Of a DNA stretch of 13,486 nucleotides, positions 1-12,292 are shown piece by piece. The notes beneath the pieces are model-generated. The model searched no databases. It was given only the letters and a program-made list of their open reading frames with translations, and had not been told where the DNA came from. The stretch is from a virus (lineage: Duplodnaviria; Heunggongvirae; Uroviricota; Caudoviricetes): the IMG/VR virus record IMGVR_UViG_2534681899_000005; one strand, written 5' to 3'. Each line of letters opens with the position of its first letter. Positions within the stretch are counted from its first letter, which is position 1. The position numbers and the translations under genes were made by a program.

Positions 1-95
1 TTGGTGTGAACAGTCTTTCATGTTCTTTATGTATCAGTTGTCCTGTGTGGTGATTTGGTGGACTGCCCCAGGGGCCATACTTATGATGCCCGGTC
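1..95. repeat. Left copy of 95-bp terminal direct repeat
   Basis: Bases 1-95 are identical to 13392-13486. Contains CTGTGTGG and the inverted repeat GCCCCAGGGGC. The repeat is truncated by the window edge, so its true length may be larger. Confidence 0.9.
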
Positions 96-343
96 AACAT
101 AAGTGTCGATAAAATCAACGGGTGTTGATCTGCATATTTCCCACACATGAGAGGAAATCAGAGCAAAGAGAGAGGAGAGAGGTTTGCTAGTCAAATTAAA
201 GGATACTCCCACACAAGACAGTCTCATACATCAGATTTGAAGGGTGCTTATCTTTCCCCAGACTTGGCCCTTGACCTGTTGGGATTTCCTACAACCCCTT
301 TCAGTCATACTCAGGCACCACACCCCGGTAAATATTACCGCAC

Positions 344-541
344 TAACCTGTAAAGAATTTTCACACCTGTGTGTTTATACAGTCATACTCTCCTGTTTTG
401 CAGTCATTGCACCCATGATACACAGCCCCTAACCTGTCAAAATATTTTACTACCCCACCAATAATACGGCCCATACCTGTAAAATATTTTTACTACTACC
501 TGTCAAAATCTTTTACTACTACCTGTAAAAATATTTGACAC
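344..541. repeat. Iteron array: five direct 22-24-bp repeats, three contiguous; candidate replication origin
   Basis: Copies at 344-366, 430-453, 474-496, 497-519 and 520-541 share the core ACCTGT[A/C]AAAAT(A/C)TTTTACTAC; AT-rich context. Confidence 0.7.
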
Positions 542-1109
542 TAATAGATAAAGTAATAGACCACACAATAAATCCCCCCTAACCCCCCCAGGGGGAATGG
601 GGAGGGATCAGAGAGTGGGGAAGGTTTTCTAAGGGAAAAGCTTAACCCACAAATGAAAGCCTAAAGAGCATTAGTGACTCTTTAGGCAATCTGTGTGTGG
701 GTCACTCTGTGACTTTAGCTATACAGCTAAACCGACTACATCGGCCTGTGTGTGGGGTGACAATGTATTCCATACATGACACGTCACCCAATTGTGTGTG
801 GTCCGGCGAATGCGTCAGCATGAGGCCCACATGTGGACCGCTGCCGAAAGCTTGCCAGCGCCGGAAGGAGGCAGCAAAGAGTCTCCCGCGCTCATGTGTG
901 GGCGTATACGTAAGATATACATTCATAAATCCAATTCTAGGCACCTAAATGGCCTTCTGGCTGCATTAACCTGTGTGAGTAGTGCAATTGCATTACCTGA
1001 CCTCTAAATCGCGTTAGAATCGATTTTAGAGCGCTTAAGGCAAAAAGTGCCCTCCCTCCCTTGTGGGCTTGCTTGTACCTATAGCACACCTAAATGATAA
1101 TAATTCTCA

Positions 1110-1138
1110 TTGACAATTGGTTGACAATATGATAAGAT
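1110..1138 (+). promoter_or_regulatory. Candidate sigma70 promoter (TTGACA-17-TAAGAT), with a second TTGACAAT copy at 1121
   Basis: -35 TTGACA at 1110-1115 and -10-like TAAGAT at 1133-1138; TTGACAAT is duplicated 11 bp downstream. Confidence 0.3.
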
Positions 1139-1173
1139 TATAAATAGGGGGAGAAACAGATCCGGAGGTCAAT

Positions 1174-1323
1174 GTGGAAATTACTGATGCAATAGCGATC
1201 ATCAACCTGGCTGTACTGTGGTGCGGTGTTGCCTACATAGCCGGAGTAACTGCAATCGACAATCTTGAAGAAAAAATGATAGATAAATACAAAAAGATTG
1301 TTGACAATTTGACGAATGTCTGA
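1174..1323 (+). CDS. Hypothetical small hydrophobic peptide (49 codons, GTG start)
   Basis: GGAGG at 1164-1168 lies 5 nt before GTG 1174. The translation VEITDAIAIINLAVLWCGVAYIAGVTAIDNLEEKMIDKYKKIVDNLTNV has one predicted TM helix and a charged tail. Below the ORF-track size cutoff and overlaps the downstream promoter. Confidence 0.2.
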   Translation: MEITDAIAIINLAVLWCGVAYIAGVTAIDNLEEKMIDKYKKIVDNLTNV

Positions 1324-1329
1324 TAAAAT
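1301..1329 (+). promoter_or_regulatory. Strong sigma70-type promoter for the rightward Rep operon (TTGACA-17-TAAAAT)
   Basis: -35 TTGACA at 1301-1306, 17-bp spacer, -10 TAAAAT at 1324-1329; 125 bp upstream of the first operon ATG; near-identical to the minus-strand promoter at 10859-10887. Confidence 0.55.
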
Positions 1330-1454
1330 ATAAAGCATAGGGTAATTCTCATCATAGTGAATTTCCTTTAGTAGACTGGCGGGGGCTTGTATTAAGTTCC
1401 CGTTTCTTTTTAACCGTATATCGCACAGGCGGTGAGCTGACAGGAGATTGAATC

Positions 1455-1664
1455 ATGGCTAAAACCGGACCGATAAGCCAGCTTGTAAACTGGACTACTG
1501 ACGAAATCGTCGAGAACGTGCTTAAAGGTAACTTTCGAAAAACTTCCGTTTATGCATTTATTCGTAAACACAAAGGAGAATATCCACACATTGAAGCGGC
1601 AATAGAAAAACTTAACTTTATCCGTATTGAGCGTGAGCTGGAAAGATATAAACATCTACTTTGA
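1455..1664 (+). CDS. Small (69 aa) putative DNA-binding regulator
   Basis: ATG preceded by AGGAGA RBS; stop overlaps the TTG at 1661 of the next gene; basic, with an HTH-like segment (TTDEIVENVLKGNFRKTSVYAFIRKH). Family not recognised. Confidence 0.5.
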   Translation: MAKTGPISQLVNWTTDEIVENVLKGNFRKTSVYAFIRKHKGEYPHIEAAIEKLNFIRIERELERYKHLL

Positions 1665-1684
1665 TAAATAATTGTGAGGGAATT

Positions 1685-2590
1685 ATGGCAAACAATAAAC
1701 TGGGGGCACATTTCACCCCAATTTTTAAACGTTTCATCAAGTATAATTTTGAAAATCCAATTGCAAAAACTACAACAGGCAAAGAGAGATTTAATTTAAA
1801 TGCGACGGAATTGATAATTTACGGGGAAATGGTTGGCTTTCATTTAAACGGCAACGAAATATTCATCTCGGAGCAGACCTTAGCAGATGATTGGGATTTT
1901 TCAAGACCAACGATTATTAAAGCTATTAAATCTCTAGTAAATGCTGGGATTATTTCTAAAGATAACCGGAAAGGCAAATCTAACATTTACAAACTGTTAA
2001 TTACACCTGAGCAGTTTGATAAAATGTGCGATGAGCAGGGTATTAAAACCTTAGACAGTGTGGGAGACAGCAAAGAGGCACCTGCTACACAGGCCCAAGA
2101 TAATCAACAGGAAGCCCCAAAAAAAGCCGCACAGCAAGCTAAAAAGGCTAAAGTAGTGCAATTGCCTACCCAAGACACTAAAGCGCCTCAAATTAACGCT
2201 GTTAGTGACAAGCCACGCCGGGGCCGTCCTGTGAAAGATGCAACAGATGGAGGCTGGATCGCCCTGGGTGAGAGTGAGGCTAAAGGCATAATGCGATCAC
2301 TGTGGGAAAGCAAATACAAAGATTTAAACAAACGTCGCCCGATCCTTTTGTCAAAGATTCAGGAGGATTTTTACACCGCAGAAGAGGTAAGCCAACATAA
2401 AGGGAAAAGAGAGGGTGAAATCTGGAAACCGGAAGAATACTGGCATTTAACCAGACCTGTGTTTATTTTTGCAAATAAGCTTATTGGGATGGGATTTGAA
2501 ATATTGTTAGATAAAACCTGCGGAGATTATCCCGAAATATTGTGGAGAAATGTTAGAAAAAATAAAAAAGGCATTTTAGAGTTTAAATAA
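1685..2590 (+). CDS. Putative replication initiator / replisome-organiser-like protein (winged helix plus AT-hook)
   Basis: ATG 1685 with GAGGGA RBS (the track uses in-frame TTG 1661). N-terminal winged-helix-like region (..FISEQTLADDWDFSRPTIIKAIKSLVNAGIISKD..), P/Q/A/K-rich linker with AT-hook KPRRGRPVK, C-terminal domain. Iteron array lies about 1.1 kb upstream. Confidence 0.45.
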   Translation: MANNKLGAHFTPIFKRFIKYNFENPIAKTTTGKERFNLNATELIIYGEMVGFHLNGNEIFISEQTLADDWDFSRPTIIKAIKSLVNAGIISKDNRKGKSNIYKLLITPEQFDKMCDEQGIKTLDSVGDSKEAPATQAQDNQQEAPKKAAQQAKKAKVVQLPTQDTKAPQINAVSDKPRRGRPVKDATDGGWIALGESEAKGIMRSLWESKYKDLNKRRPILLSKIQEDFYTAEEVSQHKGKREGEIWKPEEYWHLTRPVFIFANKLIGMGFEILLDKTCGDYPEILWRNVRKNKKGILEFK

Positions 2591-2638
2591 AAACACTGAT
2601 AATCTTATTTTTTTACAGTATTCTAAAGGAAATTTAAA

Positions 2639-2785
2639 ATGTATGGCGATTTTGATTATTACCTGGAAAAGGAAAAATATTTTGAAGATGAACTATCACA
2701 ACATTTTTCATATTGGGAAGAATATTGTGGTTGGTTAGCTGAAGATCCAGCAGATGAAGAAAACGATTCTGACATCCCTTATTAA
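2639..2785 (+). CDS. Hypothetical small acidic protein (48 aa)
   Basis: ATG 2639 with AAAGGA RBS 8 nt upstream; translation MYGDFDYYLEKEKYFEDELSQHFSYWEEYCGWLAEDPADEENDSDIPY; below the track cutoff, found by hand. Confidence 0.3.
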   Translation: MYGDFDYYLEKEKYFEDELSQHFSYWEEYCGWLAEDPADEENDSDIPY

Positions 2786-2889
2786 TTAATATCCCCTGTT
2801 ATCCCCAAATAAACTAAATAAACTAATTACATATAGAACTAGAACTAGATTGATTTCTCTTTAATGTTAAATTGACTGGAGAATTAATC

Positions 2890-3375
2890 ATGTTCAAATC
2901 TGATCTTTCTGATTCCCAATTTGAAAAACTGGTAGCACTGCAGAAATATCTTCCCAGTGATGATCAACCAACACGACAGGCCAAACACTTATTAGTCGAG
3001 GGCTTTACCCCTGAATTCGTGGCGGAATATACAGGCGTTAAACTTGAGAAAGTCCAAAAACTATATAATGAATCCTGGAATCCACGGTGTCGAGTTCCCC
3101 TCAGTGTCTATAACGACACAGACAGAGATAGAAATGTCTTCGAAGATCGCCGCCGCAAATCTCTTTTAATGTGGAATTGCGGGATGAATATTGAAGAGAT
3201 AGCAAAAGAATTAAAAGTAACCTGCTTTCATATCTGGGGTTTGTTGAGTGAAATCCTGCCACGTAAGGAGCTTAATCAACGTTTGCCTAAGCCCGGTAGT
3301 CGTGCTTATCGCGAATTTATATTCATCTACCGCCGCCATAGCAATAAAGTCCGGAAAGCAATGCAGCGCAAATAG
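2890..3375 (+). CDS. Hypothetical DNA-binding protein with two HTH-like segments (161 aa)
   Basis: ATG 2890 with TGGAGA RBS (the track ORF starts at TTG 2872). Segments GFTPEFVAEYTGVKLEKVQKLY and GMNIEEIAKELKVTCFHIWGLL resemble resolvase or sigma-region-4 type HTH; basic C-terminus. Confidence 0.5.
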   Translation: MFKSDLSDSQFEKLVALQKYLPSDDQPTRQAKHLLVEGFTPEFVAEYTGVKLEKVQKLYNESWNPRCRVPLSVYNDTDRDRNVFEDRRRKSLLMWNCGMNIEEIAKELKVTCFHIWGLLSEILPRKELNQRLPKPGSRAYREFIFIYRRHSNKVRKAMQRK

Positions 3376-3433
3376 CTTATAGCCTTCACATATGCCGCAA
3401 GTTATTGATTCTGCCGTCCGGTAAATATGCCGG

Positions 3434-3907
3434 ATGGCTCATATAAATTTTAAGGAATTCCAAATGTCTCAAATCGCTAAATTATTATCCCAGGTTATCA
3501 AAGCTATCGACGCTGAAGATTCAAAAGTTCGCCAGGATCTTTTAGATGGCAAGTTTACCAACACCCTGGCATTTACCCGTGACAAAGAGCACTTCTTAAA
3601 GCACAGACATCACGCTTTCGCTGAATGCAAGTCCGCTAATGGTGATGTTTTCTATGTCGATTTGGTGGTTATGGCATGCCGGTTGTGGATGATTCAGGAC
3701 CTTATGCGCCAACACGGTGATGATCCTCTTATCAGCATGTGGAACAGCGCCCAGGATGGCTTTGTGATTGCTGCCTTATCTAAATCCATGATTGAGGCAG
3801 AAGGCGCAAGCCTTCAGAACATGGCAGATCTCTTTGAAATAAGCGTAGGAATGATGCAGACCATGCTGCAGGCGGTGAAGCCTCTCAAACTGGTTAATCT
3901 TGATTAA
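3434..3907 (+). CDS. Hypothetical protein (157 aa; alternative start ATG 3464)
   Basis: Long ORF co-directional with neighbours; ATG 3464 has a TAAGGAA RBS; no recognisable motifs. Confidence 0.5.
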   Translation: MAHINFKEFQMSQIAKLLSQVIKAIDAEDSKVRQDLLDGKFTNTLAFTRDKEHFLKHRHHAFAECKSANGDVFYVDLVVMACRLWMIQDLMRQHGDDPLISMWNSAQDGFVIAALSKSMIEAEGASLQNMADLFEISVGMMQTMLQAVKPLKLVNLD

Positions 3908-3922
3908 ACTATTGATAAATAA

Positions 3923-3947
3923 GCACTCCCCATTTTTTGGGGGGTGC
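3923..3947. other. Intergenic GC hairpin (GCACTCCCC-ATTTTTT-GGGGGGTGC)
   Basis: 9-bp stem with one G.T pair and a T-rich loop, between the 157-aa and 129-aa genes; no downstream U-tract on the plus strand. Confidence 0.4.
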
Positions 3948-3961
3948 ATCAATGAGAGGAT

Positions 3962-4351
3962 ATGCCTATGAATATTGAAGAAATGATAGTTGAATTCGAA
4001 GAGGGTGATTTCCTGGAGGATGGGGAGTTTAGTTACTCCCGTTTTAAACAGGCGTTATTTAGCAGCGAGGATAAACCACACGTTAGTGATCTTAACGACG
4101 ATGATTTATGTCGCTGGGTATGCACCCGCTTATATGAGGATGGAAAATATACAGGCCAAAACTTTCCAAATCTCTATTTCAAAGCACAAACATTTGAGGA
4201 AGGGCAAAGAGTGAAAAACCTGGTCGATAAAATGCTTTCAGCCGGATATTTGCATAAAGAATTATTAAATCCTAAAGCTGAAAGCAAGCGCCATTATATT
4301 TTTGTGTGGACTATTGGCGATAAGTGTCCACTAAGACGCAAAGGAAAATGA
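3962..4351 (+). CDS. Hypothetical acidic protein (129 aa; probable start ATG 3968)
   Basis: GAGAGGA RBS upstream; sits two genes before the tape-measure-like gene, so a tail-assembly-chaperone-like role is possible but unproven. Confidence 0.5.
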   Translation: MPMNIEEMIVEFEEGDFLEDGEFSYSRFKQALFSSEDKPHVSDLNDDDLCRWVCTRLYEDGKYTGQNFPNLYFKAQTFEEGQRVKNLVDKMLSAGYLHKELLNPKAESKRHYIFVWTIGDKCPLRRKGK

Positions 4352-4352
4352 T

Positions 4353-4589
4353 ATGAATACCTACGAAAAGATTTATCAAAAACTGGTTAAGGACTCCGAA
4401 GAGACGCACGAAGGGGTGACAGTAGGTCACCTGCCAGAGGCAGCGAAAGAGGGGGCCACCATTATTAAAAGTTGCTCCCACACAGAAGGCCTCTCAATCG
4501 AAGAGCTTGCGGAGAAATATAATATTGATAAAGAGGCCCTGAAAAGGGCTATTTCATTATCAAAATCTTTAAGACAGGGCGAGGTGTAA
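4353..4589 (+). CDS. Hypothetical protein (78 aa)
   Basis: ATG 1 nt after the preceding stop, AAGGA RBS; stop 3 nt before the tape-measure-like ATG, so tightly coupled. Confidence 0.5.
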   Translation: MNTYEKIYQKLVKDSEETHEGVTVGHLPEAAKEGATIIKSCSHTEGLSIEELAEKYNIDKEALKRAISLSKSLRQGEV

Positions 4590-4592
4590 GAG

Positions 4593-6719
4593 ATGGCAAT
4601 GAAGGAAGTCGCCAGACTAACAAACGTTATTTACTGGGATTCTGATAAATCCAGCTGGCGAAAAGAAGTTAAACGGCTTGAGGATTATAAAAAATCCTGG
4701 AAGAAAGCCACCGACGATATAGCTAAAGCGGATTTTAAATCGAATCAGGCTGTGCTCAGAACACAAAGAACACGCGCTAAGGTGGAAGAGCAGATTGCCA
4801 GAGCACAGAAGAAACAACGTGCTCAGGCTGTCAGCCGTCTGACCGGGGGCAATAATCCGGAGCTCTCCTCTATGCGCAAGTTCTACCAACAACAAGCCAG
4901 AGAAGCCGCCAGACAACAAAAACTGTTAGATCGTAGTGTTGGAGATGTTCAGCACAGAAAAGCACGTGTAGGGGCCAACAGTGCACGAATCAGCAGCATG
5001 TTTGATGGCTCCCTGGTTGCTCAGTTCCAATCCAGAATTCAGAGAGTTAATGCTGATTATGCTAAAGGGGCTATTAACCTGCAGACCTATAATCAGAAAA
5101 TGGCCCGACTCAGAGCTGAAATGAAGATGGCAACAGCAGAGGCCGGAAAATTTCAGAGCAGACTAGACAAAGCTGCGGTAGCAGGATCTAAGCTGCATGA
5201 CAACCTGGGGAAACTCAACTCCACACTTGGCAAGATAGCTATTGGCCTTACTGCCGCTGGCTGGGGTGTTCAGCGTGCTGTTAGTGGTGCTATGGGTAGC
5301 CTTGCAGATCGCAACAGTGCCTACTTCGGTTTGATGGCACAGAACAAGGATGATAAAGCCAAGACTGATCAGCAGATGGCTTTTATCAAGAACACAGCCT
5401 ACACCTACGGGATGGATGAGCGGGAGATGCAAGGTGGCTACATGCGCTTTGCTGCAGCTACCCCCACCATGAAGGAATCTGATAAGCAGGCTCTTTTTGA
5501 GGCTATGGCTATTAAAGGTCGCTCAGTGGGTGCTACTGGCGAGCAACAGAACAGGGCGCTTGTTGCGGTCCAACAAATGGCTTCAAAGGGAAAAGTTATG
5601 GCAGAAGAGCTGCGGGGCCAACTGTCAGAAGCCTTTGCAGGCTCACAACAGGATTTTCAACAGGCCGCTATTGATGCCGGAATCATCAAGAATGCCCAGG
5701 AATTCGATAAAGCCCTTAAAGATGGCAAAATCACCCTGGATAAGCTTCTCCCTTCTTTGGTGAAAATCTGGGGTGCTGCAAAAGAAACTAAAGCTTTTGC
5801 TGAATCCATGAAACAGCCAGAAGTAGCAATGCAGCGCATGAAAAACAGCTTTAACGAGCTGGCGATCCAGTTTATGGGTGTTGTAGATCCTGCAGATGGC
5901 GTTATTAGCTTATCTGAATCTCTGATCTCCATCTTCGAAGACCTCACTACTGATATGGACGGCAGCGGGAGCGCGGCAAAACAGTTTGGTGAGGCAGTCG
6001 GTGCTGCCATGCGGGAGATCATGTATTGGGTAGGCTTCGCTAAGGGATATATTGAGGTCAAGGCTAAAGAGTTCGGCATGACCGGATCAGAGGTTGGCGA
6101 GCTTATCGGGAAACTGGTAGTCGGCTTAGCTGGTCTGAAAGTTATTACCACACTGCTTTCCCCTCTAACCGGATTTGTTTCACTTGTCACCCAACTGATT
6201 TCTCTGATAGGCAAGATTCCAGGTCTGGGCAATCTCGTTAAGGGTGCAGGTGGTGCAGTCGCTGGAAGCCCAACAACAGCATTAGCCGCTGGCAGTGCCG
6301 CAGGTGTGGGTGTTGGTGTCGCTGGCGCACTGGGCGCTAAGACGGTAGGTGAGAAGTTCAGAGGATGGATGCAAAGCAAGGCTGATCAGTTCGGGGAGTG
6401 GGCTAAATCTAAAGGCCTGCTTAGCGATGAACAGGACGCTATGACCAAACCGGGGGCCTATAACCATAGCTACATCAACAAGGGAGCTTCTTTTAATCCA
6501 TATCCAACCATTAGCCCATCACGTCCTACTCCTAGCACTGGTACGGCTATTCAGAATGGTGGCTATCAACCTGCTCAGGTTAATGTGGTGCCTCAAGGTG
6601 AGATTTCCGGCAAATGGGAGATAACCATCGATGAGGGGGGAATTGCCAGGGTGATTCAGAAGGAAGTCAGCGATCAGTTGGATTGGAAAGCCACACAGGA
6701 ATCTAATCAGCTTTTCTAA
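4593..6719 (+). CDS. Phage tail tape-measure-like protein (708 aa)
   Basis: GAGGTG RBS then ATG 4593. N-terminal about 200 aa is Q/R/A/K-rich and coiled-coil-like; central ..GATGEQQNRALVAVQQMASKGKVMAEELRGQLSEAFAG.. resembles the conserved tape-measure core; C-terminal Gly/Ala-rich hydrophobic segments; no Walker A or catalytic motif seen. Confidence 0.6.
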   Translation: MAMKEVARLTNVIYWDSDKSSWRKEVKRLEDYKKSWKKATDDIAKADFKSNQAVLRTQRTRAKVEEQIARAQKKQRAQAVSRLTGGNNPELSSMRKFYQQQAREAARQQKLLDRSVGDVQHRKARVGANSARISSMFDGSLVAQFQSRIQRVNADYAKGAINLQTYNQKMARLRAEMKMATAEAGKFQSRLDKAAVAGSKLHDNLGKLNSTLGKIAIGLTAAGWGVQRAVSGAMGSLADRNSAYFGLMAQNKDDKAKTDQQMAFIKNTAYTYGMDEREMQGGYMRFAAATPTMKESDKQALFEAMAIKGRSVGATGEQQNRALVAVQQMASKGKVMAEELRGQLSEAFAGSQQDFQQAAIDAGIIKNAQEFDKALKDGKITLDKLLPSLVKIWGAAKETKAFAESMKQPEVAMQRMKNSFNELAIQFMGVVDPADGVISLSESLISIFEDLTTDMDGSGSAAKQFGEAVGAAMREIMYWVGFAKGYIEVKAKEFGMTGSEVGELIGKLVVGLAGLKVITTLLSPLTGFVSLVTQLISLIGKIPGLGNLVKGAGGAVAGSPTTALAAGSAAGVGVGVAGALGAKTVGEKFRGWMQSKADQFGEWAKSKGLLSDEQDAMTKPGAYNHSYINKGASFNPYPTISPSRPTPSTGTAIQNGGYQPAQVNVVPQGEISGKWEITIDEGGIARVIQKEVSDQLDWKATQESNQLF

Positions 6720-6792
6720 TGCTGGAAGATAGCGCAGCTTTACTGATATTGTGATCAAAATCAATAAGTTAGCCCGACCGGATAAACTCCAG

Positions 6793-6828
6793 GCAAGAAA
6801 AAAGCCCCTAAGTGTTAACAAAGGGGCT
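6793..6828 (-). terminator. Intrinsic terminator, clearest on the minus strand (possibly bidirectional)
   Basis: Stem AGCCCCT (6803-6809) / AGGGGCT (6822-6828) with a 12-nt loop. On the minus strand it is followed by TTTTTTCTT (complement of 6793-6802); on the plus strand only by CTCTTCTCC. Confidence 0.5.
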
Positions 6829-6849
6829 CTTCTCCGGTATCCTTTTGAT

Positions 6850-6964
6850 GCGGGGCGAACCTGCTAACAAAAATCAACCTCTCGCGAGACTAATGTTAGC
6901 AGGTTGCCGGAAGGTAAGTCAACTCCGGCCTATAAACCTTAAAGCGACTATAAAATCGCCCCGC
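6850..6964. other. Highly structured element with nested perfect inverted repeats (candidate structured RNA or protein-binding site)
   Basis: 9-bp outer stem GCGGGGCGA (6850-6858) / TCGCCCCGC (6956-6964) encloses a 10-bp stem CCTGCTAACA (6860-6869) / TGTTAGCAGG (6895-6904), whose loop holds the palindrome TCTCGCGAGA, plus hairpin GCCGGA / TCCGGC (6906-6929). Confidence 0.4.
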
Positions 6965-7246
6965 CAATTGTGATGATCCGACCTTTGAGGCGGGTCCGGT
7001 GCCCAGGGGGTGCAGTGATGCACAAACCAGGCAACGATAAACAGGCTAACAGTGATAGCGGCGCTCAATCAGCGCACTAAATCCTAACCAGTCCGGGAAA
7101 GAGGCTGGCTCTATCGACCGCTCATGCACGGGACAATGCATACCTGATAAAGGATTCTCACAAGGGACCAATCGCGAGAAAAGAAGTGGAAAGGGGCTGA
7201 TTTGTGGTGTATCACTACGGCCTCAAAAGAACACTATTGTCTTTTT

Positions 7247-7705
7247 TCAGCCTCTCCCCACATTTGACCAGTATTTGATTGCACCGATCAAATCATCATA
7301 GTGGCGCATTGCATCATTGAAGCCTTTATAGCTTGCCCATTGTGGGGAAACCTTGTTATTGCTGAATTGCCCACTAATCAGGATAGTCTCCAAAATGTCG
7401 GCGTATCGCTTGCCAATTCGCTTTCTGACGGCCTCAGAGCTCCCACCCTTTACGATTGCATTAATCAGGGCTTTTGTGTGTCTCAGGCTCTCATAGAGCA
7501 TTGCAGCGTGGGCAGATTCCATAAAGGAGCGCTTAGGCAGATCACCCCACCCCTCAGAATGAATTGCTGCCAGTGTGGCGTAATTCAGGCCGCTATAGTG
7601 TTTCCCGTCATCCCAGCCAACCGCTACACCTTCCATCTGTGAGAGCTCTTTATGCAGCTTATCCATCATGCGCTTGTCTATGGTGCAACGGACTTTCGGA
7701 CTCAT
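7247..7705 (-). CDS. Phage virion morphogenesis / head-tail joining protein (HK97 gp10 / Mu G-like), 152 aa
   Basis: Start overlaps the upstream stop by ATGA (7702-7705); motif ..NYATLAAIHSEGWGDLPKRSFMES.. resembles the Y-A-x-H-x-x-G...P-x-R-x-F signature of this family, recalled from memory. Confidence 0.4.
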   Translation of the reverse strand: MSPKVRCTIDKRMMDKLHKELSQMEGVAVGWDDGKHYSGLNYATLAAIHSEGWGDLPKRSFMESAHAAMLYESLRHTKALINAIVKGGSSEAVRKRIGKRYADILETILISGQFSNNKVSPQWASYKGFNDAMRHYDDLIGAIKYWSNVGRG

Positions 7706-8514
7706 TTGTTGATCTCCGTGATGTCATCGAGCAACATGTTGGCCTTATCAATCATCGTTTCGTGGAACTCATTCGACACAACAGACTTATCACCTGCGGC
7801 AATCTTTCCCGCTGCCTCTCCCTGTGCATATTCCCCGCGATGCTTAGCCCTGGTTGATTTCGTAGCAGCGTTGCCAGCGTTGCTACCCTCTTTAGCACTG
7901 TTAACAGCGCCCTTTTGCTGTGTTTTATTCACCTTCTTACTGTTAGTGAAAACTCCGGCATTTTCGACCATCTTCACCTTGAAGGTGCGGAATTCTTCAA
8001 AAGTGCAATCAATAGTGATGCAGTCACCAGAGGAAGAGCTACGCTTAACTTCACATTTCGTCATGATGAAGTTCTCAAGGAGTCCGGCATCTTCACTTAC
8101 CAGGCTAACTAGCTGGCGCTTGTCTCTCATTTCCATAAGTGCCTGAACAGCGGCAGCAGGGCGCATAGATTCACGGGGATTATCTGGATCAGTGTTCCGG
8201 TCGATGTAGTTCTCTTTCCGGATGATATGAGGGGAAGAGGTAATAATGCCCGTAAAGCTGACAGATTTATCTTTAATGACGGCATGGTCTGACATGGTGG
8301 TGCCATCCTCGACCGCATAGCTCGATTTCTCGACAGGGAACGAATAGCTGACATCAGAGATTGAGTCAAAGAAGATAGCCACGTTATCGGTATAGTTGAA
8401 GCCATCCATTATATTTTTGTTTTGTGAATATCCCCCACACATAACAGTGAATGCAGGAGATCTCGATTCAGCTTGTTTTGCAGCTGTCAGAGCATCACTA
8501 GCCATATTAAACAT
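7702..8514 (-). CDS. Hypothetical protein, possibly phage structural (270 aa)
   Basis: Long ORF in the capsid operon, translationally coupled to the next gene; C-terminal half is low-complexity K/A/G/N-rich; no family recognised. Confidence 0.45.
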   Translation of the reverse strand: MFNMASDALTAAKQAESRSPAFTVMCGGYSQNKNIMDGFNYTDNVAIFFDSISDVSYSFPVEKSSYAVEDGTTMSDHAVIKDKSVSFTGIITSSPHIIRKENYIDRNTDPDNPRESMRPAAAVQALMEMRDKRQLVSLVSEDAGLLENFIMTKCEVKRSSSSGDCITIDCTFEEFRTFKVKMVENAGVFTNSKKVNKTQQKGAVNSAKEGSNAGNAATKSTRAKHRGEYAQGEAAGKIAAGDKSVVSNEFHETMIDKANMLLDDITEINK

Positions 8515-8610
8515 GCCTCCAAAATGAATCTTTTCGTTGCCCTGCTTAAAATCTGCAGAAAATACAGGGCAGTTATTCGTTAGAATCGCTTATAGCTCTT
8601 CCCGAGAGCG

Positions 8611-8862
8611 TTATTTTGCAAAACGATTATGCGCATTCAGGGCTTTTTTGCGGTCCTGGGCTTGTTTGCGTGCAATAAAATGTTCGAAAGTCTCGGCCCA
8701 GGTGCATTTATTATATTCACGGTATTTATGCATAGCCTGGCGGCTAACGTCATAGCAGGCGGCAAATGTGGAGATACGCAGGAATTCCGGCAGATCCTCG
8801 TCATCGATATGGATAATATCAAAAGGCACGTCGTCACGGTCGCCGTATAAAACAATTTTCAT
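8611..8862 (-). CDS. Hypothetical small protein (83 aa from ATG; track ORF extends to GTG at 8871)
   Basis: GAGGTG RBS 6 nt before the ATG (complement of 8860-8862); acidic N-terminus, basic C-terminus with a possible HTH (FAACYDVSRQAMHKYRE). Confidence 0.4.
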   Translation of the reverse strand: MKIVLYGDRDDVPFDIIHIDDEDLPEFLRISTFAACYDVSRQAMHKYREYNKCTWAETFEHFIARKQAQDRKKALNAHNRFAK

Positions 8863-8975
8863 AAAAGACACCTCAAAAACTTAAGACGGGGATAATAAAA
8901 AAGGGAAGAGGGAAAGACCTATCCCCGATCTCTCACCTCTTCCCTTTGCTTTTATTTGGCCTTCGAAGAAGGACC

Positions 8976-10022
8976 TTATTTAGCCTTGGCTTTTGCCAGA
9001 GCAGCGGCGGCGGAGTTACTAACACTCACTTTAACCACAACTTCAGGCATCATGTTCATGAAAGCATAAGAGGATTCAATGAAGATTTCTCGTTTACCTC
9101 TGGACTCTTCCATATACATGAAAGCTTCACGTGCAGCGCCGTTTGCAAGCTTCAGGTTGCGAGCGCAAGGGCCGAAAAATTGAGTATAAACGCCCACCAT
9201 ATCGCCTAACGCATGCGGCTGGAACTGTGGGACCAGATAAGCAGTATTCTCTGGCAGACTATCCATTTGCACCACACGCAGAGCTAAGCCTGGAATGCGG
9301 AAAGTCGGGAAGCCCGGCAGAATATCCTCAGGGAACATCAGACCTTTATCGGTAATATTCTGATTGCCGAACAACAGCACTTTTCGCAACAGTTCATCAG
9401 TCTGAATTGCAGCAAAGAGTTCAGCACGGCAGAACAGGGTGAAACCACGCAGAGCACGAACGACACCACGCTGTTTAACCTTGCTCAGTGCAACCAGGTC
9501 CTGCAGTTGTTTGAGGATGTCTTGAGCTAGATCCACTTCAGAGGTGGACTGTTCCACGCCCAGCAGTTCGCACACATTCAGTTCTTTACCCTTGGTGAGG
9601 ATAATTTTGTTCTCAAAGAGAGCAAGCTGGCGTGCTTCTTCGTGGGTCTGGCGTAAGCCTTCACCCAACTGAATAACACGACGAGCGGTTACAGACTCTA
9701 AATTCTCTTCGGAATCTTTGCCCGGAACACGGATACCTTGCCAGTCAGAAGGATAAATAGCACTTGATGCGGCAGTGAATGCCATATCACCCGTGCCCGT
9801 TTCACGCTCATCTGCGGTAATGGTAGCCATCTGTTCACCGTAGCGCGGATACTGACCGAAAGCGGATTGTTTCACCTGGCGAACTTTGTCATATTCAAAT
9901 TTAAAGGTATTGCACAGAGCAGTAGTGTTGAAGATATCCATTGCTGAAATAATCTGGTTATCCAGCGGGATATCTTTAATCAGACCACACAGATCGCGAA
10001 CTTCGAATTCTTTCTTAGCCAT
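8976..10022 (-). CDS. Putative major capsid protein, lambda gpE-like (348 aa)
   Basis: ATG (complement of 10020-10022) with AAGGAGG RBS 6 nt upstream; the track ORF starts at in-frame TTG. Size and C-terminal segment (..KREIFIESSYAFMNMMPEVVVKV..) resemble lambda E-family capsid proteins as recalled; follows a ~110-aa gene as in lambda D-E. Not searched. Confidence 0.45.
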   Translation of the reverse strand: MAKKEFEVRDLCGLIKDIPLDNQIISAMDIFNTTALCNTFKFEYDKVRQVKQSAFGQYPRYGEQMATITADERETGTGDMAFTAASSAIYPSDWQGIRVPGKDSEENLESVTARRVIQLGEGLRQTHEEARQLALFENKIILTKGKELNVCELLGVEQSTSEVDLAQDILKQLQDLVALSKVKQRGVVRALRGFTLFCRAELFAAIQTDELLRKVLLFGNQNITDKGLMFPEDILPGFPTFRIPGLALRVVQMDSLPENTAYLVPQFQPHALGDMVGVYTQFFGPCARNLKLANGAAREAFMYMEESRGKREIFIESSYAFMNMMPEVVVKVSVSNSAAAALAKAKAK

Positions 10023-10033
10023 TTTCAACCTCC

Positions 10034-10369
10034 TTATTGTGCAACACGCAAATCGCCATTGCTGGCAGCAATAACAGCGGCTAAGCCGTCTTTATCCACG
10101 TAGGCCGGATTGATATAACAGCCCTTGTTGGCAACAACGATAAAAGCGTCGCCAACTTCAGCACGTTCTACAACCAGCAGCGGAGTTTTATCTGTGTGCG
10201 TTGCTTTAACGAAGGTCTCAACCTCGCCAGCCTCAGTTACCACAACAACAGTGCCAGCCGGAATCTCAGCTTTAACTTTGTTTTTAATTTCAACGTCGCG
10301 AATACTAAATTGCTCATCTGCGGCGTATGAAATGATGTGTCCGCGTGTGCGGATAGTCATATCTTTCAT
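10034..10369 (-). CDS. Putative head decoration protein, lambda gpD-like (111 aa)
   Basis: AGGTGA RBS then ATG (complement of 10367-10369); beta-rich small protein directly upstream of the capsid candidate; first gene after the promoter. Confidence 0.35.
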   Translation of the reverse strand: MKDMTIRTRGHIISYAADEQFSIRDVEIKNKVKAEIPAGTVVVVTEAGEVETFVKATHTDKTPLLVVERAEVGDAFIVVANKGCYINPAYVDKDGLAAVIAASNGDLRVAQ

Positions 10370-10667
10370 TTGATCACCTGCGATTTAAATTAACTCCCCT
10401 CAAAGAGTTCCGGTATAACCTCTCAAACCACGACAGGCTCGGGCCGAAAAGTTATGCCGGAAATCTAAAGGGAAATTGATACAAGGAGAGGGAGATAGCC
10501 CCGCACCGTCCAAGCGGGGGCTATTCCACATGGGGAAACCGACAACAGTCGGATGATAGTTCACAGTATGATTACGGTTACTAGAGAGCACTATCACGAA
10601 AGGCACTCCCCCGGATCAGTTCAGGCTGCGGTCACATCAGCGGGGAAATACCTTTCGGGATAGCTAC

Positions 10668-10701
10668 CCACACAGAAAACCCGCAAAAGAAAACTGTGTG
10701 G
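10668..10701. promoter_or_regulatory. Inverted repeat CCACACAG-N18-CTGTGTGG in the capsid-operon leader
   Basis: Perfect 8-bp arms at 10668-10675 and 10694-10701; lies in the roughly 480-nt leader between promoter and decoration gene; overlaps TGTGGATAA. Confidence 0.35.
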
Positions 10702-10850
10702 ATAACTAGCCCAATAGGAGAATTAATCGACCACTCAACGATGATCAGGGTAGTGTTATTTATAAGGCGGCACCGCTACCTGGTCGCCTTTACTTTGGAG
10801 GAAAATACGGCAAATCAAGATCTTCTCAAATGATATTGATTCCATACTAT

Positions 10851-10870
10851 ACTGTATATTATATCAGTAT
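10851..10870. promoter_or_regulatory. LexA-box-like palindrome (SOS operator candidate)
   Basis: Minus strand reads TACTGATATAATATACAGTA, which keeps CTG-N10-CAG with an AT-rich spacer (consensus TACTGTATATATATACAGTA); overlaps the -10 of the capsid-operon promoter. Confidence 0.5.
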
Positions 10871-10887
10871 TCTCTCAAATTGTCAAC
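10859..10887 (-). promoter_or_regulatory. Consensus sigma70 promoter for the leftward capsid operon (TTGACA-17-TATAAT)
   Basis: Minus strand reads gtgTTGACAatttgagagaatactgaTATAATat: -35 at 10882-10887, -10 at 10859-10864, exact 17-bp spacer. Confidence 0.6.
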
Positions 10888-11193
10888 ACCCTGATTATAT
10901 AAATTCTAATAATTAGCGTGGTAACTGTATTTTCAGACCTCTATCAATCCCATCAATACGTCACCCCACCCTTTAGATGCATACATCCGACCTACTTTGT
11001 AGGCTTGGCGTACTGCCAAGGTCGCAGCTATGCGACTCCTATCTATCACCACTTTATAAAGCTTGATAGATATCTTTTGATCAATATCAATGTTTTCCAG
11101 GGATTTACCCGGCTATAGTTCGAATCAAGGAAGGGGAGCATTGATAGCACCCAACCGAGCAAACAAATCAACTTCTCGCAAAAGGTGATAGTT

Positions 11194-11316
11194 ATGGGTA
11201 TCAAGAACAGTGCCAGCGCATGGCAAAAGGCCAGGTTTCATCACCCACACATTGTTAAGGCAATTGAGGTGGTTGGAGTTTTAGCCCTGATGTTAGCTCT
11301 GTGTGTGGAGGTGTGA
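11194..11316 (+). CDS. Hypothetical small hydrophobic peptide (40 aa)
   Basis: AAGGTGA RBS 6 nt before the ATG; translation MGIKNSASAWQKARFHHPHIVKAIEVVGVLALMLALCVEV has a C-terminal TM-like segment; its leader shares a 15-nt motif with the 173-aa gene leader. Confidence 0.25.
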   Translation: MGIKNSASAWQKARFHHPHIVKAIEVVGVLALMLALCVEV

Positions 11317-11380
11317 GATAGGCAAAGGAGGCAAAGCATTTTTTAATAGGTCTGGCAGTCTTAGATTTTGTATTAATCAT

Positions 11381-11423
11381 CATTGAGCGGAGTTTATGAA
11401 CAGCATTGAGAGGAGTTTATGAC
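11381..11423 (+). repeat. Tandem duplication of a translation-initiation region, with an 8-codon upstream ORF coupled by ATGA
   Basis: CATTGAGCGGAGTTTATGAA (11381-11400) is followed by a near-identical second copy (11404-11423, CATTGAGAGGAGTTTATGAC); mini-ORF 11396-11422 (MNSIERSL) stops at TGA overlapping the main ATG at 11419. Confidence 0.45.
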
Positions 11424-11679
11424 GGGGGCTAAAGATATCAGGAGACTGAGGGAAGAGCTGATAGCTGAAATTAAAGCTAAGGCAAAGCAAATGGAGATAG
11501 CCGCACAAATGGATGTAGCGGAACAGATGTACAAGATGGTTGAAGAGGGAACACCACGACAGGTTATCGCTAAAACCTTCGGTGTGGGGATCGCCACCGT
11601 GCACAGAAGGCTGAAAGCCTATGCCGACTACCACAATATCGAGAGAAAGGAGGATGGGAGATTTAAGAAGAATAAATAG
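11419..11679 (+). CDS. Small HTH DNA-binding protein (resolvase/Fis-type HTH), 86 aa
   Basis: GAGAGGAG RBS; coiled-coil-like N-terminus; C-terminal GTPRQVIAKTFGVGIATVHRRLKAY matches the Hin/resolvase-type HTH pattern; no recombinase catalytic domain. Confidence 0.5.
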   Translation: MTGAKDIRRLREELIAEIKAKAKQMEIAAQMDVAEQMYKMVEEGTPRQVIAKTFGVGIATVHRRLKAYADYHNIERKEDGRFKKNK

Positions 11680-11736
11680 TAGGAACAGTCCAACAGGTTA
11701 TTAACTAAATTCAACTTCTCGCAAAGGGGTACCATT

Positions 11737-12258
11737 ATGTTATTTCAGAAAGATAAAGAATCAGTAAATAAAAGGCTTTTTAAAGAACTGGTAAAAATGT
11801 TCTTTCAGTACACTGCAGCGTTTTTGATAGCCGGGCCTTGGTTAATGGCTATCTGTTTTTACCCTGCTACCTTGTTTATTGGCAGTAGCAAGTTCGGCGA
11901 TGGCCCGTTTCATGTGGATATTGGTTTTATAGATTCTCTCCTGATCCGTCCTATAAATGCTGTTCTCAATGCTTTCTACTTCCCCACTAGTCTAGAGGGG
12001 TGGGCGGTAACCTGGGGTGTTTTAGGCTTAGCATATGTATATTGGTTGGTTGGCTTTTTGTGGGGTGCAATCTGTGCTCTCCTCGATATTGATACAGGAT
12101 CAAGCCGTAGGAGTGGTGGTAATAATAGCGGAGCGGGTGTATATGCACATGTAGGCACCAGGGGAGCTAGTGTTACCGCAGGTACCCGATTCGCTGGCGG
12201 CTGGCTGAGCATAGGCAAACGCGGCGTTAGTTGGAGAAAAAGCAAAAAACTGTTCTGA
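11737..12258 (+). CDS. Hypothetical membrane protein (173 aa, 2-3 predicted TM helices)
   Basis: ATG 11737 with a leader containing TCAACTTCTCGCAAA; hydrophobic segments (AAFLIAGPWLMAICFYPATLFIG; GWAVTWGVLGLAYVYWLVGFLWGAICALL); Gly/Ser/Arg-rich tail; followed by a terminator. Confidence 0.5.
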   Translation: MLFQKDKESVNKRLFKELVKMFFQYTAAFLIAGPWLMAICFYPATLFIGSSKFGDGPFHVDIGFIDSLLIRPINAVLNAFYFPTSLEGWAVTWGVLGLAYVYWLVGFLWGAICALLDIDTGSSRRSGGNNSGAGVYAHVGTRGASVTAGTRFAGGWLSIGKRGVSWRKSKKLF

Positions 12259-12265
12259 CCTACCA

Positions 12266-12292
12266 GGGGGGCCATCACGGCCCCTTTTTATT
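12266..12292 (+). terminator. Rho-independent terminator
   Basis: GC stem GGGGCC / GGCCCC with loop ATCAC, followed by TTTTTATTTAT; 8 nt after the stop at 12258. Confidence 0.75.

What the first reader, a model, noticed from the sequence alone, without database searches (positions are those of the whole stretch)
2639..4589. Five compact unknown genes between Rep and the tape-measure-like gene
This stretch encodes a 48-aa acidic protein, a two-HTH protein, and 157-, 129- and 78-aa unknowns, all tightly packed and co-directional. In satellites and plasmids this position typically holds helper-manipulation, anti-defence or defence cargo. The HTH protein could also be a small-terminase-like or late-activator-like factor. 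A structured GC hairpin (3923-3947) splits the cluster.
Basis: inference. Interest (0 to 1): 0.5.

Follow-up and report, generated by a model that had tools for sequence, protein, structure and literature searches.

The report
Orphan control genes of a phage-parasite plasmid
The five small genes are real and conserved but occur only in one rare family of 13 kb E. coli plasmids that appears to parasitise rV5-like viruses, and they look like that plasmid's own DNA-binding control module rather than swappable cargo.

Summary
All five same-strand ORFs and the GC hairpin are present. Relatives show purifying selection and keep the same gene order.

The window is a complete 13,391 bp circular E. coli plasmid. 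It carries Rep plus iterons and only four virion genes (capsid, tape measure, Dit, Neck1). Their closest phage relatives are virulent rV5-like myoviruses. A roughly 60 nt non-coding element is also shared with 120 of those phages. The element is therefore probably an undescribed plasmid-borne phage satellite.

The five genes are family-restricted orphans. They gave no significant hit in Pfam, PHROGs, NCBIfam, PADLOC, PDB sequences, 50,697 phage genomes or billions of proteins. Four (B-E) are in every member examined; the A slot is filled in all but one. Together they form one allelic cassette with sharp boundaries, so they are core genes, not variable cargo.

- B has two weak HTH signals.
- D is predicted to be a winged helix.
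- E has a C-terminal HTH.
- C is unresolved.
- A is an acidic peptide ending in [IVL]PY, which resembles the SSB tail.

D and E are translationally coupled to the tape measure gene, but they are not recognisable tail chaperones. My best guess is a regulatory or control module. Confidence is modest.

The parts
2639..2785 (+). Gene A. 48 aa, very acidic (pI 4.05), ends in ...ENDSDIPY. Alleles in relatives (71 aa and 62 aa) differ widely, but all are acidic and end in [IVL]PY. It is absent where Rep is replaced (L013).
2890..3375 (+). Gene B. 161 aa from ATG 2890 (the mechanical ORF starts at TTG 2872), basic (pI 9.6). It has two helix-turn-helix-like segments at about residues 29-61 and 83-117.
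   Evidence: purifying selection
3464..3907 (+). Gene C. 147 aa from ATG 3464 (the mechanical ORF starts at 3434). It is the best conserved of the five among close relatives (74-99%; 40% in L011). It is a true orphan, with a possible C-terminal HTH supported only by a very weak hit.
3910..3954 (.). GC-rich stem-loop between C and D (core 3923-3947). It is terminator-like. In this window the T-rich tail is on the - strand. Relatives have the loop flipped with a + strand T-tail, or carry unrelated terminator hairpins at the same place.
3968..4351 (+). Gene D. 127 aa from ATG 3968 (the ORF starts at 3962). It has an acidic disordered N-terminus and a predicted winged-helix core at about residues 40-120. 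Three Cys are conserved. The C-terminal tail is basic and prone to insertions and deletions.
4353..4589 (+). Gene E. 78 aa, with a conserved N-terminal helix (MNTYEKIYQKL), a linker of variable length, and an invariant C-terminal HTH-like segment (LSIEELAEKYNIDKEAL.RAI). Its ATG lies 1 nt after the D stop, and its last codons carry the Shine-Dalgarno sequence of the tape measure gene.
1661..2590 (+). Rep, the plasmid replication initiator. It is the upstream boundary of the cassette.
4593..6719 (+). Tape measure protein. It is the downstream boundary and is translationally coupled to E. It is 26% identical to the rV5-like tape measure protein.
1301..1329 (+). Near-consensus sigma-70 promoter with an extended -10 (TTGACA-17-TAAAAT). 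It is the likely start of the p69-Rep-A-B-C transcript. It shares a 54-nt similarity with the - strand promoter at 10886-10858.

Best explanation
The five genes are the family-specific control module of a small plasmid. That plasmid most likely lives as a satellite, or assembly-poisoning parasite, of virulent rV5-like (Vequintavirinae) myoviruses.

**Proposed mechanism**
- A, B and C are transcribed with Rep from the strong promoters upstream of p69/Rep.
- A is a small acidic adaptor whose conserved C-terminal [IVL]PY tip imitates the SSB C-terminal tail. It would act on the host or helper replication and repair machinery.
- B (two HTH motifs), and probably C, bind DNA and set the expression state of the plasmid's operons and/or helper genes.
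- A stem-loop separates these three genes from D-E-TMP.
- D (winged helix) and E (HTH with an N-terminal docking helix) are made in fixed proportion with the tape measure protein through translational coupling. They would act when the morphogenetic genes are expressed, either as DNA-binding switches or as adaptors for the tape measure protein.

**What is shown**
- The genes are real and under purifying selection, with B-E in every member and A in all but one.
- They are restricted to this plasmid family.
- They form one allelic cassette.
- D-E-TMP coupling is conserved.
- A hairpin recurs at the C-D junction.
- The element has rV5-like affinities.

**What is inferred**
- DNA binding.
- The regulatory role.
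- The SSB-tail mimicry.
- The satellite lifestyle.
For: **1. Core genes, not cargo**
- The order Rep-(A)-B-C-D-E-TMP is the same in every relative examined.
- pN/pS is 0.0-0.4.
- In the L008 member the amino-acid identities are A 70%, B 79%, C 89%, D 76% and E 56%, against 59% for Rep.

**2. One module**
- Against L011, nucleotide identity falls from 90-93% (Rep 3' half) to 41-61% exactly across 2600-4550 (A to E). It rises to 75-93% in the tape measure gene.
- This mosaic pattern is typical of specificity or regulatory regions.

**3. DNA-binding-type folds**
- B gives recurrent sub-threshold hits in two alleles: Sigma70_r4 (E 0.003-0.006), KORA (0.005-0.07), Mor (0.018) and the PHROG late activator and repressor families. 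Its N-terminal domain profile hits PDB 8vd6 'CAP repeat' at E 3e-5.
- E hits many HTH families at E 0.01-0.1, always on its invariant C-terminal segment.

**4. Two expression units**
- Hairpins occupy the C-D gap in 9 of the 10 members compared. L011 and L013 have unrelated sequences with U-tracts there.
- The D-E and E-TMP gaps are 0-9 nt in all members.

**5. Satellite context**
- Dit is 51%, Neck1 43%, TMP 26% and MCP 25% identical to rV5-like phage MaxTheCat.
- Window 831-891 is 85-87% identical to a gene-free stretch of 120 Vequintavirinae genomes.
- There is no terminase, portal, tube, sheath or lysis gene.
- Iterons plus Rep are present.
- The element is always a roughly 13.4 kb plasmid and never chromosomal.

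**6. The A tail**
- Three diverged alleles all end in acidic-x-[IVL]-P-Y. The SSB tip is DDDIPF (established knowledge; the SSB-Ct role is described in PMC7145534 and PMC7913777).
Against: - No HTH hit reaches a curated threshold.
- The D model has only moderate confidence (mean pLDDT 61; the other four models score 37-45). Winged helices also serve as protein-binding modules.
- D and E are acidic overall (pI 5.4-5.6), and the putative recognition helix of D is not basic.
- I found no operator that co-varies with the cassette type. The three promoters are alike in both window-type and L011-type elements.
- The hairpin in this window has no + strand U-tract, so the two-unit transcription model is weaker for this particular plasmid.
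- The tight D-E-TMP coupling could equally mean a structural or chaperone role.
- The A motif is only three residues long.
- The satellite lifestyle is not demonstrated. No virion-derived sequence of the element was found in IMG/VR.
Confidence: 0.4

Rival explanations
1. D and E are non-homologous analogues of the tail assembly chaperones (gpG/gpGT-type). They would keep the plasmid's own tape measure protein soluble and recruit the helper's tail tube protein. Only A-C would be regulatory.
For: - D-E-TMP occupies the same position as TAC(157 aa)-T(82 aa)-TMP in rV5-like phage MaxTheCat.
- The sizes are similar (127/78 aa), and both proteins are acidic.
- Translational coupling to TMP is conserved in all members.
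- The plasmid has no recognisable chaperone of its own, and its TMP is only 26% identical to the helper's.
- D ends in a basic [RK]3-4-G-K tail that loosely resembles the basic C-terminus of the rV5-like T segment.
Against: - D and E give no PHROG or Pfam TAC hit, whereas the rV5-like TAC scores 5e-69 against phrog_3840.
- hhalign of the D and E alignments against rV5-like TAC and T alignments gives under 1% probability.
- D has no slippery heptamer, the -1 frame is full of stops, and E has its own Shine-Dalgarno sequence and ATG.
- In L011 the TMP is 84% identical but D and E are only 47% and 43% identical, so they do not co-evolve with TMP.
Confidence: 0.2
2. The genes are effector cargo: anti-restriction, anti-defence or helper-interference proteins that act by protein-protein inhibition. 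For example, A could be a DNA mimic and C an inhibitor.
For: - They are small orphan proteins with no homologues, as is typical of anti-defence genes.
- A is extremely acidic.
- The cassette exists in strongly diverged alleles, as expected for arms-race genes.
Against: - Presence and order are invariant across the family, rather than showing the presence/absence variation expected of cargo.
- Purifying selection is strong.
- There is no PADLOC hit.
- Three of the five have DNA-binding-type motifs or folds.
- D-E are coupled to a structural gene.
Confidence: 0.15
3. One of the HTH proteins (B, or D+E) is a small-terminase-like packaging specificity factor. It would direct the helper's large terminase to the plasmid, perhaps through the repeated CCACACA motif or the shared 60-nt element.
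For: - B gives weak hits to phrog_7067 'terminase small subunit' in two alleles (E 0.058 and 0.015).
- The plasmid lacks any terminase gene yet would have to be packaged.
- CCACACA occurs 22 times against 1.5 expected.
- The rV5-like record read here (MaxTheCat) has no annotated small terminase subunit in the 30 kb stretch around its large terminase gene.
Against: - phrog_7067 is a 56-position HTH-only profile, and the hits are far below significance.
- No oligomerisation core is evident.
- The motif is retained in both cassette types (11 copies in L011-type, 14-21 in window-type) although B-E differ by 44-60%.
Confidence: 0.1
4. Some of the ORFs, especially the 48-aa A, are chance ORFs in non-coding spacer DNA.
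For: A is short and nearly invariant among close relatives, so substitution patterns carry little information.
Against: - The A frame is kept open in diverged alleles of 71 aa and 62 aa that retain the acidity and the C-terminal [IVL]PY.
- B, C and D show clear third-position bias and low pN/pS.
- All have plausible Shine-Dalgarno sequences.
Confidence: 0.02

Closest known systems
Satellite phage P4 control region (epsilon, delta, Vis, Cnr next to the alpha replication gene)
   Same: - A small element that can replicate as a plasmid.
- It carries a cluster of small regulatory proteins beside its replication gene.
- Those proteins sense and reprogram a myovirus helper.
   Different: - P4 integrates and uses temperate P2.
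- P4 encodes no capsid or tape measure protein; it uses Sid/Psu instead.
- There is no sequence similarity to any P4 protein: no hit in the phage-genome tblastn search or in PHROGs.
- The helper here would be a virulent rV5-like phage.
PLE of Vibrio cholerae (satellite of virulent myovirus ICP1), e.g. the HTH repressor CapR and the RepA initiator
   Same: - A satellite of a strictly lytic myovirus.
- It has an iteron-type initiator.
- It carries small orphan genes, including DNA-binding proteins, that act on helper structural gene expression.
   Different: - PLE is chromosomally integrated and has no capsid or tape measure genes of its own.
- There is no homology.
- The comparison is functional analogy only, drawn from the literature (PMC11071384 abstract; general knowledge).
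Capsid-forming PICIs (cf-PICIs)
   Same: A satellite that encodes its own major capsid protein rather than only remodelling the helper's.
   Different: - cf-PICIs carry a complete head and packaging module and no tail genes, and they integrate.
- This plasmid has only MCP plus a small upstream gene, and it adds tail genes (TMP, Dit, Neck1).
Tail assembly chaperones gpG/gpGT (PHROG 3840/1613 in rV5-like phages)
   Same: Two small acidic ORFs lie immediately upstream of, and are coupled to, the tape measure gene.
   Different: - There is no frameshift architecture.
- There is no profile homology.
- D is predicted to be a winged helix and E an HTH.
Mor/C late activators, KorA repressors and sigma-70 region 4 HTH proteins
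   Same: The two halves of B give their best, weak matches to these HTH families.
   Different: All matches are below the curated cut-offs (12.9-17.7 bits against 24-27), so B is not a member by the families' own criteria.
SSB C-terminal tip (…DDDIPF)
   Same: A ends in an acidic stretch followed by a hydrophobic residue, Pro and an aromatic C-terminal residue. This is conserved across three otherwise diverged alleles.
   Different: - A has no OB fold.
- Its last residue is Tyr, not Phe.
- Binding to SSB partner proteins is untested.

Membership tests
Tail assembly chaperone gpG/gpGT (for D and E) | Located immediately upstream of the tape measure gene | tested here: met
   D-E-TMP gaps are 1 and 3 nt in the window and 0-9 nt in all relatives.
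Tail assembly chaperone gpG/gpGT (for D and E) | Two overlapping ORFs joined by a programmed -1 frameshift at a slippery heptamer | tested here: not met
   There is no X XXY YYZ heptamer in the D frame. The -1 frame has 9 stops between 4100 and 4354. E is in the +1 frame, which is open only from 4335, and has its own Shine-Dalgarno sequence and ATG.
Tail assembly chaperone gpG/gpGT (for D and E) | Profile homology to a TAC family | tested here: not met
   - No Pfam, PHROG or NCBIfam TAC hit for two alleles.
- hhalign against rV5-like TAC and T alignments gives probability under 1%.
- The rV5-like TAC itself scores 5e-69.
Tail assembly chaperone gpG/gpGT (for D and E) | TAC-like fold | tested here: inconclusive
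Helix-turn-helix / winged-helix DNA-binding proteins (B, D, E) | Match to an HTH family above its curated threshold | tested here: not met
   The best hits are 12.9-18.8 bits against cut-offs of 20-27 bits.
Helix-turn-helix / winged-helix DNA-binding proteins (B, D, E) | Winged-helix or tri-helical fold | tested here: met
Helix-turn-helix / winged-helix DNA-binding proteins (B, D, E) | Sequence-specific DNA binding | not testable with these tools
   This needs EMSA, ChIP or footprinting.
Known anti-phage defence systems (PADLOC) | Match to a defence-system protein model | tested here: not met
   There were no hits except C against a CARF model at E 0.02, which is not significant.
Small terminase subunit (B) | Profile match to a TerS family with a DNA-binding domain plus an oligomerisation core | tested here: not met
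   The only match is phrog_7067, a 56-position HTH-only profile, at E 0.015-0.058.
SSB C-terminal tail mimic (A) | Acidic segment ending in hydrophobic-Pro-aromatic at the free C-terminus | tested here: met
   The endings are ENDSDIPY, ERDDILPY, ERDSCIPY and CDCVPY, and all alleles have pI 4.05.
SSB C-terminal tail mimic (A) | Binds the SSB-Ct pocket of SSB-interacting proteins | not testable with these tools
   This needs binding assays with, for example, ExoI, PriA, chi or RecQ.
Phage satellite (whole element) | Lacks a complete virion gene set but carries helper-related morphogenetic genes and its own replication module | tested here: met
   - Only MCP, TMP, Dit and Neck1 are recognisable as virion genes.
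- There is no terminase, portal, tube or sheath.
- Rep plus iterons are present.
- The structural genes are homologous to rV5-like ones.
Phage satellite (whole element) | Mobilised in helper-made particles | not testable with these tools
   No copy was found in IMG/VR. This needs infection and transduction experiments.

The most novel reading that the evidence does not exclude
The plasmid is the first described plasmid-borne satellite of a virulent E. coli myovirus (the rV5-like group). It would substitute its own capsid, tape measure, tail-tube initiator and neck proteins into helper-built particles. Genes A-E would be its hijack controller.
- Four new families of small HTH or winged-helix proteins would switch the element from plasmid maintenance to morphogenesis and silence helper genes.
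- D-E would form a new kind of factor coupled to the tape measure protein.
- A would be a free-standing mimic of the SSB tail that recruits or blocks replication and repair proteins.
Probability: 0.25. Interest if true: 0.8.

Novelty: new variant of a known kind. Interest (0 to 1): 0.6.

Why it matters
If the reading is right, these five genes are the control centre of a type of mobile element I could not find described. It would be an autonomously replicating plasmid that parasitises strictly lytic rV5-like phages and brings its own capsid and tail-length genes. I found no paper on it. A 2025 review states that only one plasmid satellite has been shown so far and that others probably remain unknown (PMC12282955).

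rV5-like phages are widely used in E. coli phage therapy and biocontrol work. A plasmid that interferes with them, or rides in their particles, is therefore practically relevant.

The genes also provide four or five protein families with no relatives anywhere else, and a testable candidate for SSB-tail mimicry.

If instead the genes prove to be ordinary plasmid regulators, the finding is of modest interest.

Tried and rejected
**Homology searches that found nothing**
- Pfam, PHROGs, NCBIfam and PADLOC scans of A-E in two alleles gave nothing significant.
- tblastn of A-E against 50,697 phage genomes gave no match.
- tblastn against PLSDB found only the same plasmid family.
- Word-indexed searches of 5.8 billion proteins with B, C and D found only E. 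coli 13-14 kb contigs.
- An exhaustive HMMER search of 1.84 billion representatives with the C profile found only its own family, plus a spurious Calx-like repeat protein.
- PDB sequence-profile searches for B, C, D, E and the two halves of B gave nothing convincing. The exception is a 'CAP repeat' hit to the first HTH of B.

**Searches for wider distribution**
- A GTDB species-representative scan and an IMG/VR scan with MCP found nothing, and an IMG/VR scan with C found nothing.
- The metagenome scan found only near-identical copies.

**Tail-chaperone hypothesis for D-E: rejected as a membership claim**
- It was tested by BLASTP, hhalign, frame analysis and fold search.

**Other attempts**
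- The structure model of C was too weak to interpret.
- I looked for an operator that co-varies with the cassette type in the three promoters and found none.
- The whole-window Rfam scan at gathering thresholds gave no hit.
- tRNA/tmRNA scan: none.
- An earlier assumption that E's frame is open from 4215 was wrong. It opens at 4335.
Full report
**What is in the sequence**

- A, 2639-2785, is 48 aa and very acidic: pI 4.05, with 16 Asp/Glu and 2 Lys/Arg.
- B is the 2872-3375 ORF. Its Shine-Dalgarno spacing, its annotated relatives and the alignment all point to ATG 2890, giving 161 aa.
- C most likely starts at 3464 (147 aa) and D at 3968 (127 aa).
- E is 4353-4589 (78 aa).

Only D-E-TMP is truly tight. 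The E ATG lies 1 nt after the D stop, and the TMP ATG lies 3 nt after the E stop. The last codons of E (…QGEV) supply the Shine-Dalgarno sequence of the tape measure gene. The other gaps are 48-104 nt.

The hairpin GCACTCCCC-ATTTTTT-GGGGGGTGC sits exactly at 3923-3947 and extends through an outer stem to 3910-3954. Its free energy is -24.6 kcal/mol and z = -3.5.

**Are they genes?**

I compared the window with six plasmid relatives. B, C and D show pN/pS of 0.07-0.40, 0.00-0.16 and 0.13-0.35, and most differences fall at third codon positions.

A is nearly invariant among close relatives, so that test is uninformative for it. However, its frame is kept in two diverged alleles of 71 aa and 62 aa.

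E keeps a conserved N-terminal helix and an invariant C-terminal 33 residues. These flank a linker that varies by up to about 35 residues.

**What the window is**

Positions 1-95 repeat at 13392-13486, so the window is a closed circle of 13,391 bp.

It matches a family of non-mobilizable E. coli plasmids of 13.2-13.7 kb at 90-96% identity.
- The family is in 7 of 5,426 complete E. coli genomes, always as a plasmid.
- It is in four metagenome contigs of 2.4-15.5 kb, three of them 13.9-15.5 kb.
- It appears in hundreds of draft assemblies, judged by protein cluster sizes of 189-369 members.

The plasmid has a Rep initiator and four 22-nt iterons at 432-542.

On the - strand it carries a major capsid protein, a Dit-like 'tail tube initiator', a Neck1/tail-completion protein and two small unknown genes. 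On the + strand it carries the tape measure protein.

No terminase, portal, protease, scaffold, tube, sheath, baseplate wedge, fibre or lysis gene is present.

The closest phage relatives of the four virion genes are virulent rV5-like Vequintavirinae. Against phage MaxTheCat, Dit is 51% identical, Neck1 43%, TMP 26% and MCP 25%.

In addition, window 831-891, in gene-free DNA, is 85-87% identical to a gene-free stretch of 120 Vequintavirinae genomes.

The element therefore looks like a plasmid-borne satellite, or assembly-interfering parasite, of rV5-like phages.

Literature searches found no description of such an element. A 2025 review says only one plasmid satellite, of an inovirus, has been demonstrated (PMC12282955).

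**The five genes are orphans**

None of A-E has a significant hit in Pfam, PHROGs, NCBIfam or PADLOC, in either of two diverged alleles.

tblastn found nothing in 50,697 phage genomes and only the same plasmid family in PLSDB.

Searches of 5.8 billion proteins with B, C and D returned only E. coli contigs of about 13-14 kb.

An exhaustive HMMER scan of 1.84 billion cluster representatives with the C profile returned only the family itself and one spurious repeat protein.

PDB sequence-profile searches were negative, apart from a hit of the first HTH of B to a 'CAP repeat' chain at E 3e-5.

**They are core genes, not cargo**

Every relative I read has the order Rep-(A)-B-C-D-E-TMP.
- In the diverged member L008 the identities are A 70%, B 79%, C 89%, D 76% and E 56%, against 59% for Rep.
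- In L011 they are B 56%, C 40%, D 47% and E 43%, while TMP is 84%, Neck1 93% and MCP 80%.

A sliding comparison with L011 shows a sharp-edged block. Identity is 90-93% in the 3' half of Rep, 41-61% from 2600 to 4550, and 75-93% from the start of TMP. A-E therefore behave as one allelic cassette, as immunity or specificity regions do.

A is missing only in L013, where Rep itself is replaced. L006 carries an unannotated type-2 A.

**What the proteins look like**

- **B** is basic and has two HTH-like segments. The N-terminal segment repeatedly matches KorA (E 0.005-0.07). The C-terminal segment matches sigma-70 region 4 (0.003-0.006), Mor (0.018) and the PHROG late-activator and repressor families. 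All are below threshold, but they recur in both alleles.
- **E**: its invariant C-terminus (LSIEELAEKYNIDKEAL.RAI) hits a dozen HTH families at E 0.01-0.2.
- **A** and its two other alleles share little beyond acidity and a C-terminal acidic-x-[IVL]-P-Y. This resembles the DDDIPF tip of SSB, which docks many replication and repair proteins. The SSB-Ct role is described in PMC7145534 and PMC7913777; the motif sequence is from general knowledge. This is a lead, not a result.

**The tail-chaperone question**

In rV5-like phages the two genes in front of the tape measure gene are a 157-aa tail assembly chaperone (phrog_3840, E 5e-69) and an 82-aa -1 frame extension. D and E sit in the same place and have similar sizes, so I tested this carefully.
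- BLASTP gave E 0.62 and 0.005 in single pairwise comparisons.
- hhalign of the D and E family alignments against alignments of nine rV5-like TACs and eight T segments gave probabilities below 1%.
- D contains no slippery heptamer, the -1 frame is closed by many stops, and E has its own Shine-Dalgarno sequence and ATG.
- The D model is a winged helix, and no TAC appears among its structural neighbours.
- In L011, D and E have diverged far more than TMP.

D and E are therefore not members of the TAC family. A non-homologous analogue cannot be excluded, because the conserved translational coupling to TMP is exactly what a chaperone would have.

**The hairpin**

A stable hairpin occupies the C-D gap in 9 of the 10 members compared.
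- L001, L003 and L006 have the window's version.
- L002, L004 and L005 have the same stem with the loop flipped, followed by CTTTATTTATC. This is a canonical + strand terminator.
- L011 and L013 have unrelated GC hairpins with U-tracts.
- Only L008 lacks one.

Recurrence in non-homologous sequence argues for function. The hairpin would separate the Rep-A-B-C transcript from D-E-TMP.

In this window the T-rich tail is on the - strand. Read-through into D-E-TMP may therefore be substantial here, or the hairpin may act as an RNA-stability element. There is no room for a promoter between the hairpin and the D ribosome-binding site.

**Best reading and its limits**

I conclude that A-E are the family-specific control module of the element. 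It is an early unit (A, B, C) expressed with Rep and a late unit (D, E) expressed with the tape measure protein, made mostly of small DNA-binding-type proteins.

- Shown: gene reality, core status, orphan status, cassette behaviour, coupling, the recurrent hairpin and the rV5-like affinities.
- Inferred: DNA binding, a regulatory role, SSB-tail mimicry and the satellite lifestyle.

My confidence in the regulatory reading is about 0.4. The rivals are a chaperone role for D-E (0.2), effector cargo (0.15), packaging specificity (0.1) and chance ORFs (0.02).

**Novelty and score**

The proteins belong to no known family, though three have familiar fold types. The element appears to be a new variant of a known kind, the phage satellite.

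The finding as handed over ('five unknown genes') cannot be resolved to a function with these tools. It does mark the control region of what may be an undescribed satellite of phages that matter for therapy. I score interest at 0.6.

Noticed in passing
window 1-13486 (whole): The window is a closed circle of 13,391 bp, since positions 1-95 equal 13392-13486. It belongs to a rare E. coli plasmid family with Rep plus iterons and only four recognisable virion genes (MCP, TMP, Dit, Neck1). All four are nearest to virulent rV5-like Vequintavirinae. It is a candidate plasmid-borne satellite or assembly-poisoning plasmid, and I found no paper describing it.
   Followed up: partly
window 822-909 (core 831-891); phage copy L027 2501-2561: A roughly 60-nt stretch in gene-free DNA is 85-87% identical to a gene-free region of 120 rV5-like phage genomes. 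It is almost invariant in the plasmid members where it was found, including the diverged L011. The differences between plasmid and phage are compensatory (GCTGCC…GGCAGC against ACCGAC…GTCGGT), which suggests a shared structured RNA or DNA element. The plasmid copy gives a sub-threshold match to bacterial small SRP RNA (20.8 bits, gathering score 40), but the phage copy does not. It could be a pac site, an origin element or a small RNA.
   Followed up: partly
window, 22 sites, e.g. 141, 209, 561, 694, 749, 795, 895, 10668/10695, 11245/11302, 12664, 13183, 13342: The heptamer CCACACA occurs 22 times against 1.5 expected (0 of 200 shuffles reach this). Most copies are in gene-free DNA, and some form inverted pairs. 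It is enriched in every family member (11-21 copies) but not in the rV5-like structural region. It is a candidate protein-binding site or RNA stem motif.
   Followed up: partly
window 12260-13391 plus 1-1100: About 2.2 kb, 17% of the plasmid, has no plausible gene. An equivalent gene-free gap of 2.2-2.6 kb is kept in all relatives. It contains the iterons, the shared phage element and most of the CCACACA copies. There is no Rfam family at gathering score.
   Followed up: partly
window 1110-1138, 1301-1329 (+) and 10886-10858 (-): Three near-consensus sigma-70 promoters with extended -10 elements share the pattern TTGACAATTTGA-N8-TGATAAAAT. The same pattern is kept in the diverged members L008 and L011. 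The - strand promoter (a perfect 12/12 match) lies about 490 nt upstream of the small gene that precedes the capsid gene, which implies a long structured leader.
   Followed up: partly
window 432-542: Four direct repeats of 22 nt (ACCTGTCAAAATATTTTACTAC) are spaced 43, 23 and 23 nt apart. They are probably the Rep iterons, that is, the origin.
   Followed up: no
window 3923-3947 compared with L002, L004, L005: In three relatives the loop of the C-D hairpin is flipped and a T-tract follows it. The same cassette is therefore a + strand terminator in them and a - strand one here. The tail TTTATTTATC also follows the terminator at 12265-12287 and resembles the tails of rV5-like phage terminators.
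   Followed up: partly
window 4300-4351 (D 3' end) and 4395-4470 (E linker): These are indel hot spots. Some relatives have 18-35 extra residues at the D C-terminus, with repeated GDKCPL and LAKAKP segments. The E linker varies by up to about 35 residues, while both of its ends stay conserved.
   Followed up: no
NZ_CP043822.1 (39,610 bp plasmid): This record holds three places matching the window, which is consistent with a head-to-tail trimer of the 13 kb element. It could be a multimer or an assembly artefact.
   Followed up: no
window 11419-11679 and 11737-12258: An 86-aa protein consists of a resolvase-type HTH only (HTH_7, E 3e-6) with no catalytic domain. It is followed by a 173-aa hydrophobic, Gly-rich orphan protein. 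Both are conserved in the family and their role is unknown.
   Followed up: no
L027 2130-2225 (phage APECc02, upstream of the shared element): The phage gene-free stretch carries four copies of a palindromic repeat, CTGTCCGT-N-ATACGGACAC. This may be a phage origin or operator array.
   Followed up: no
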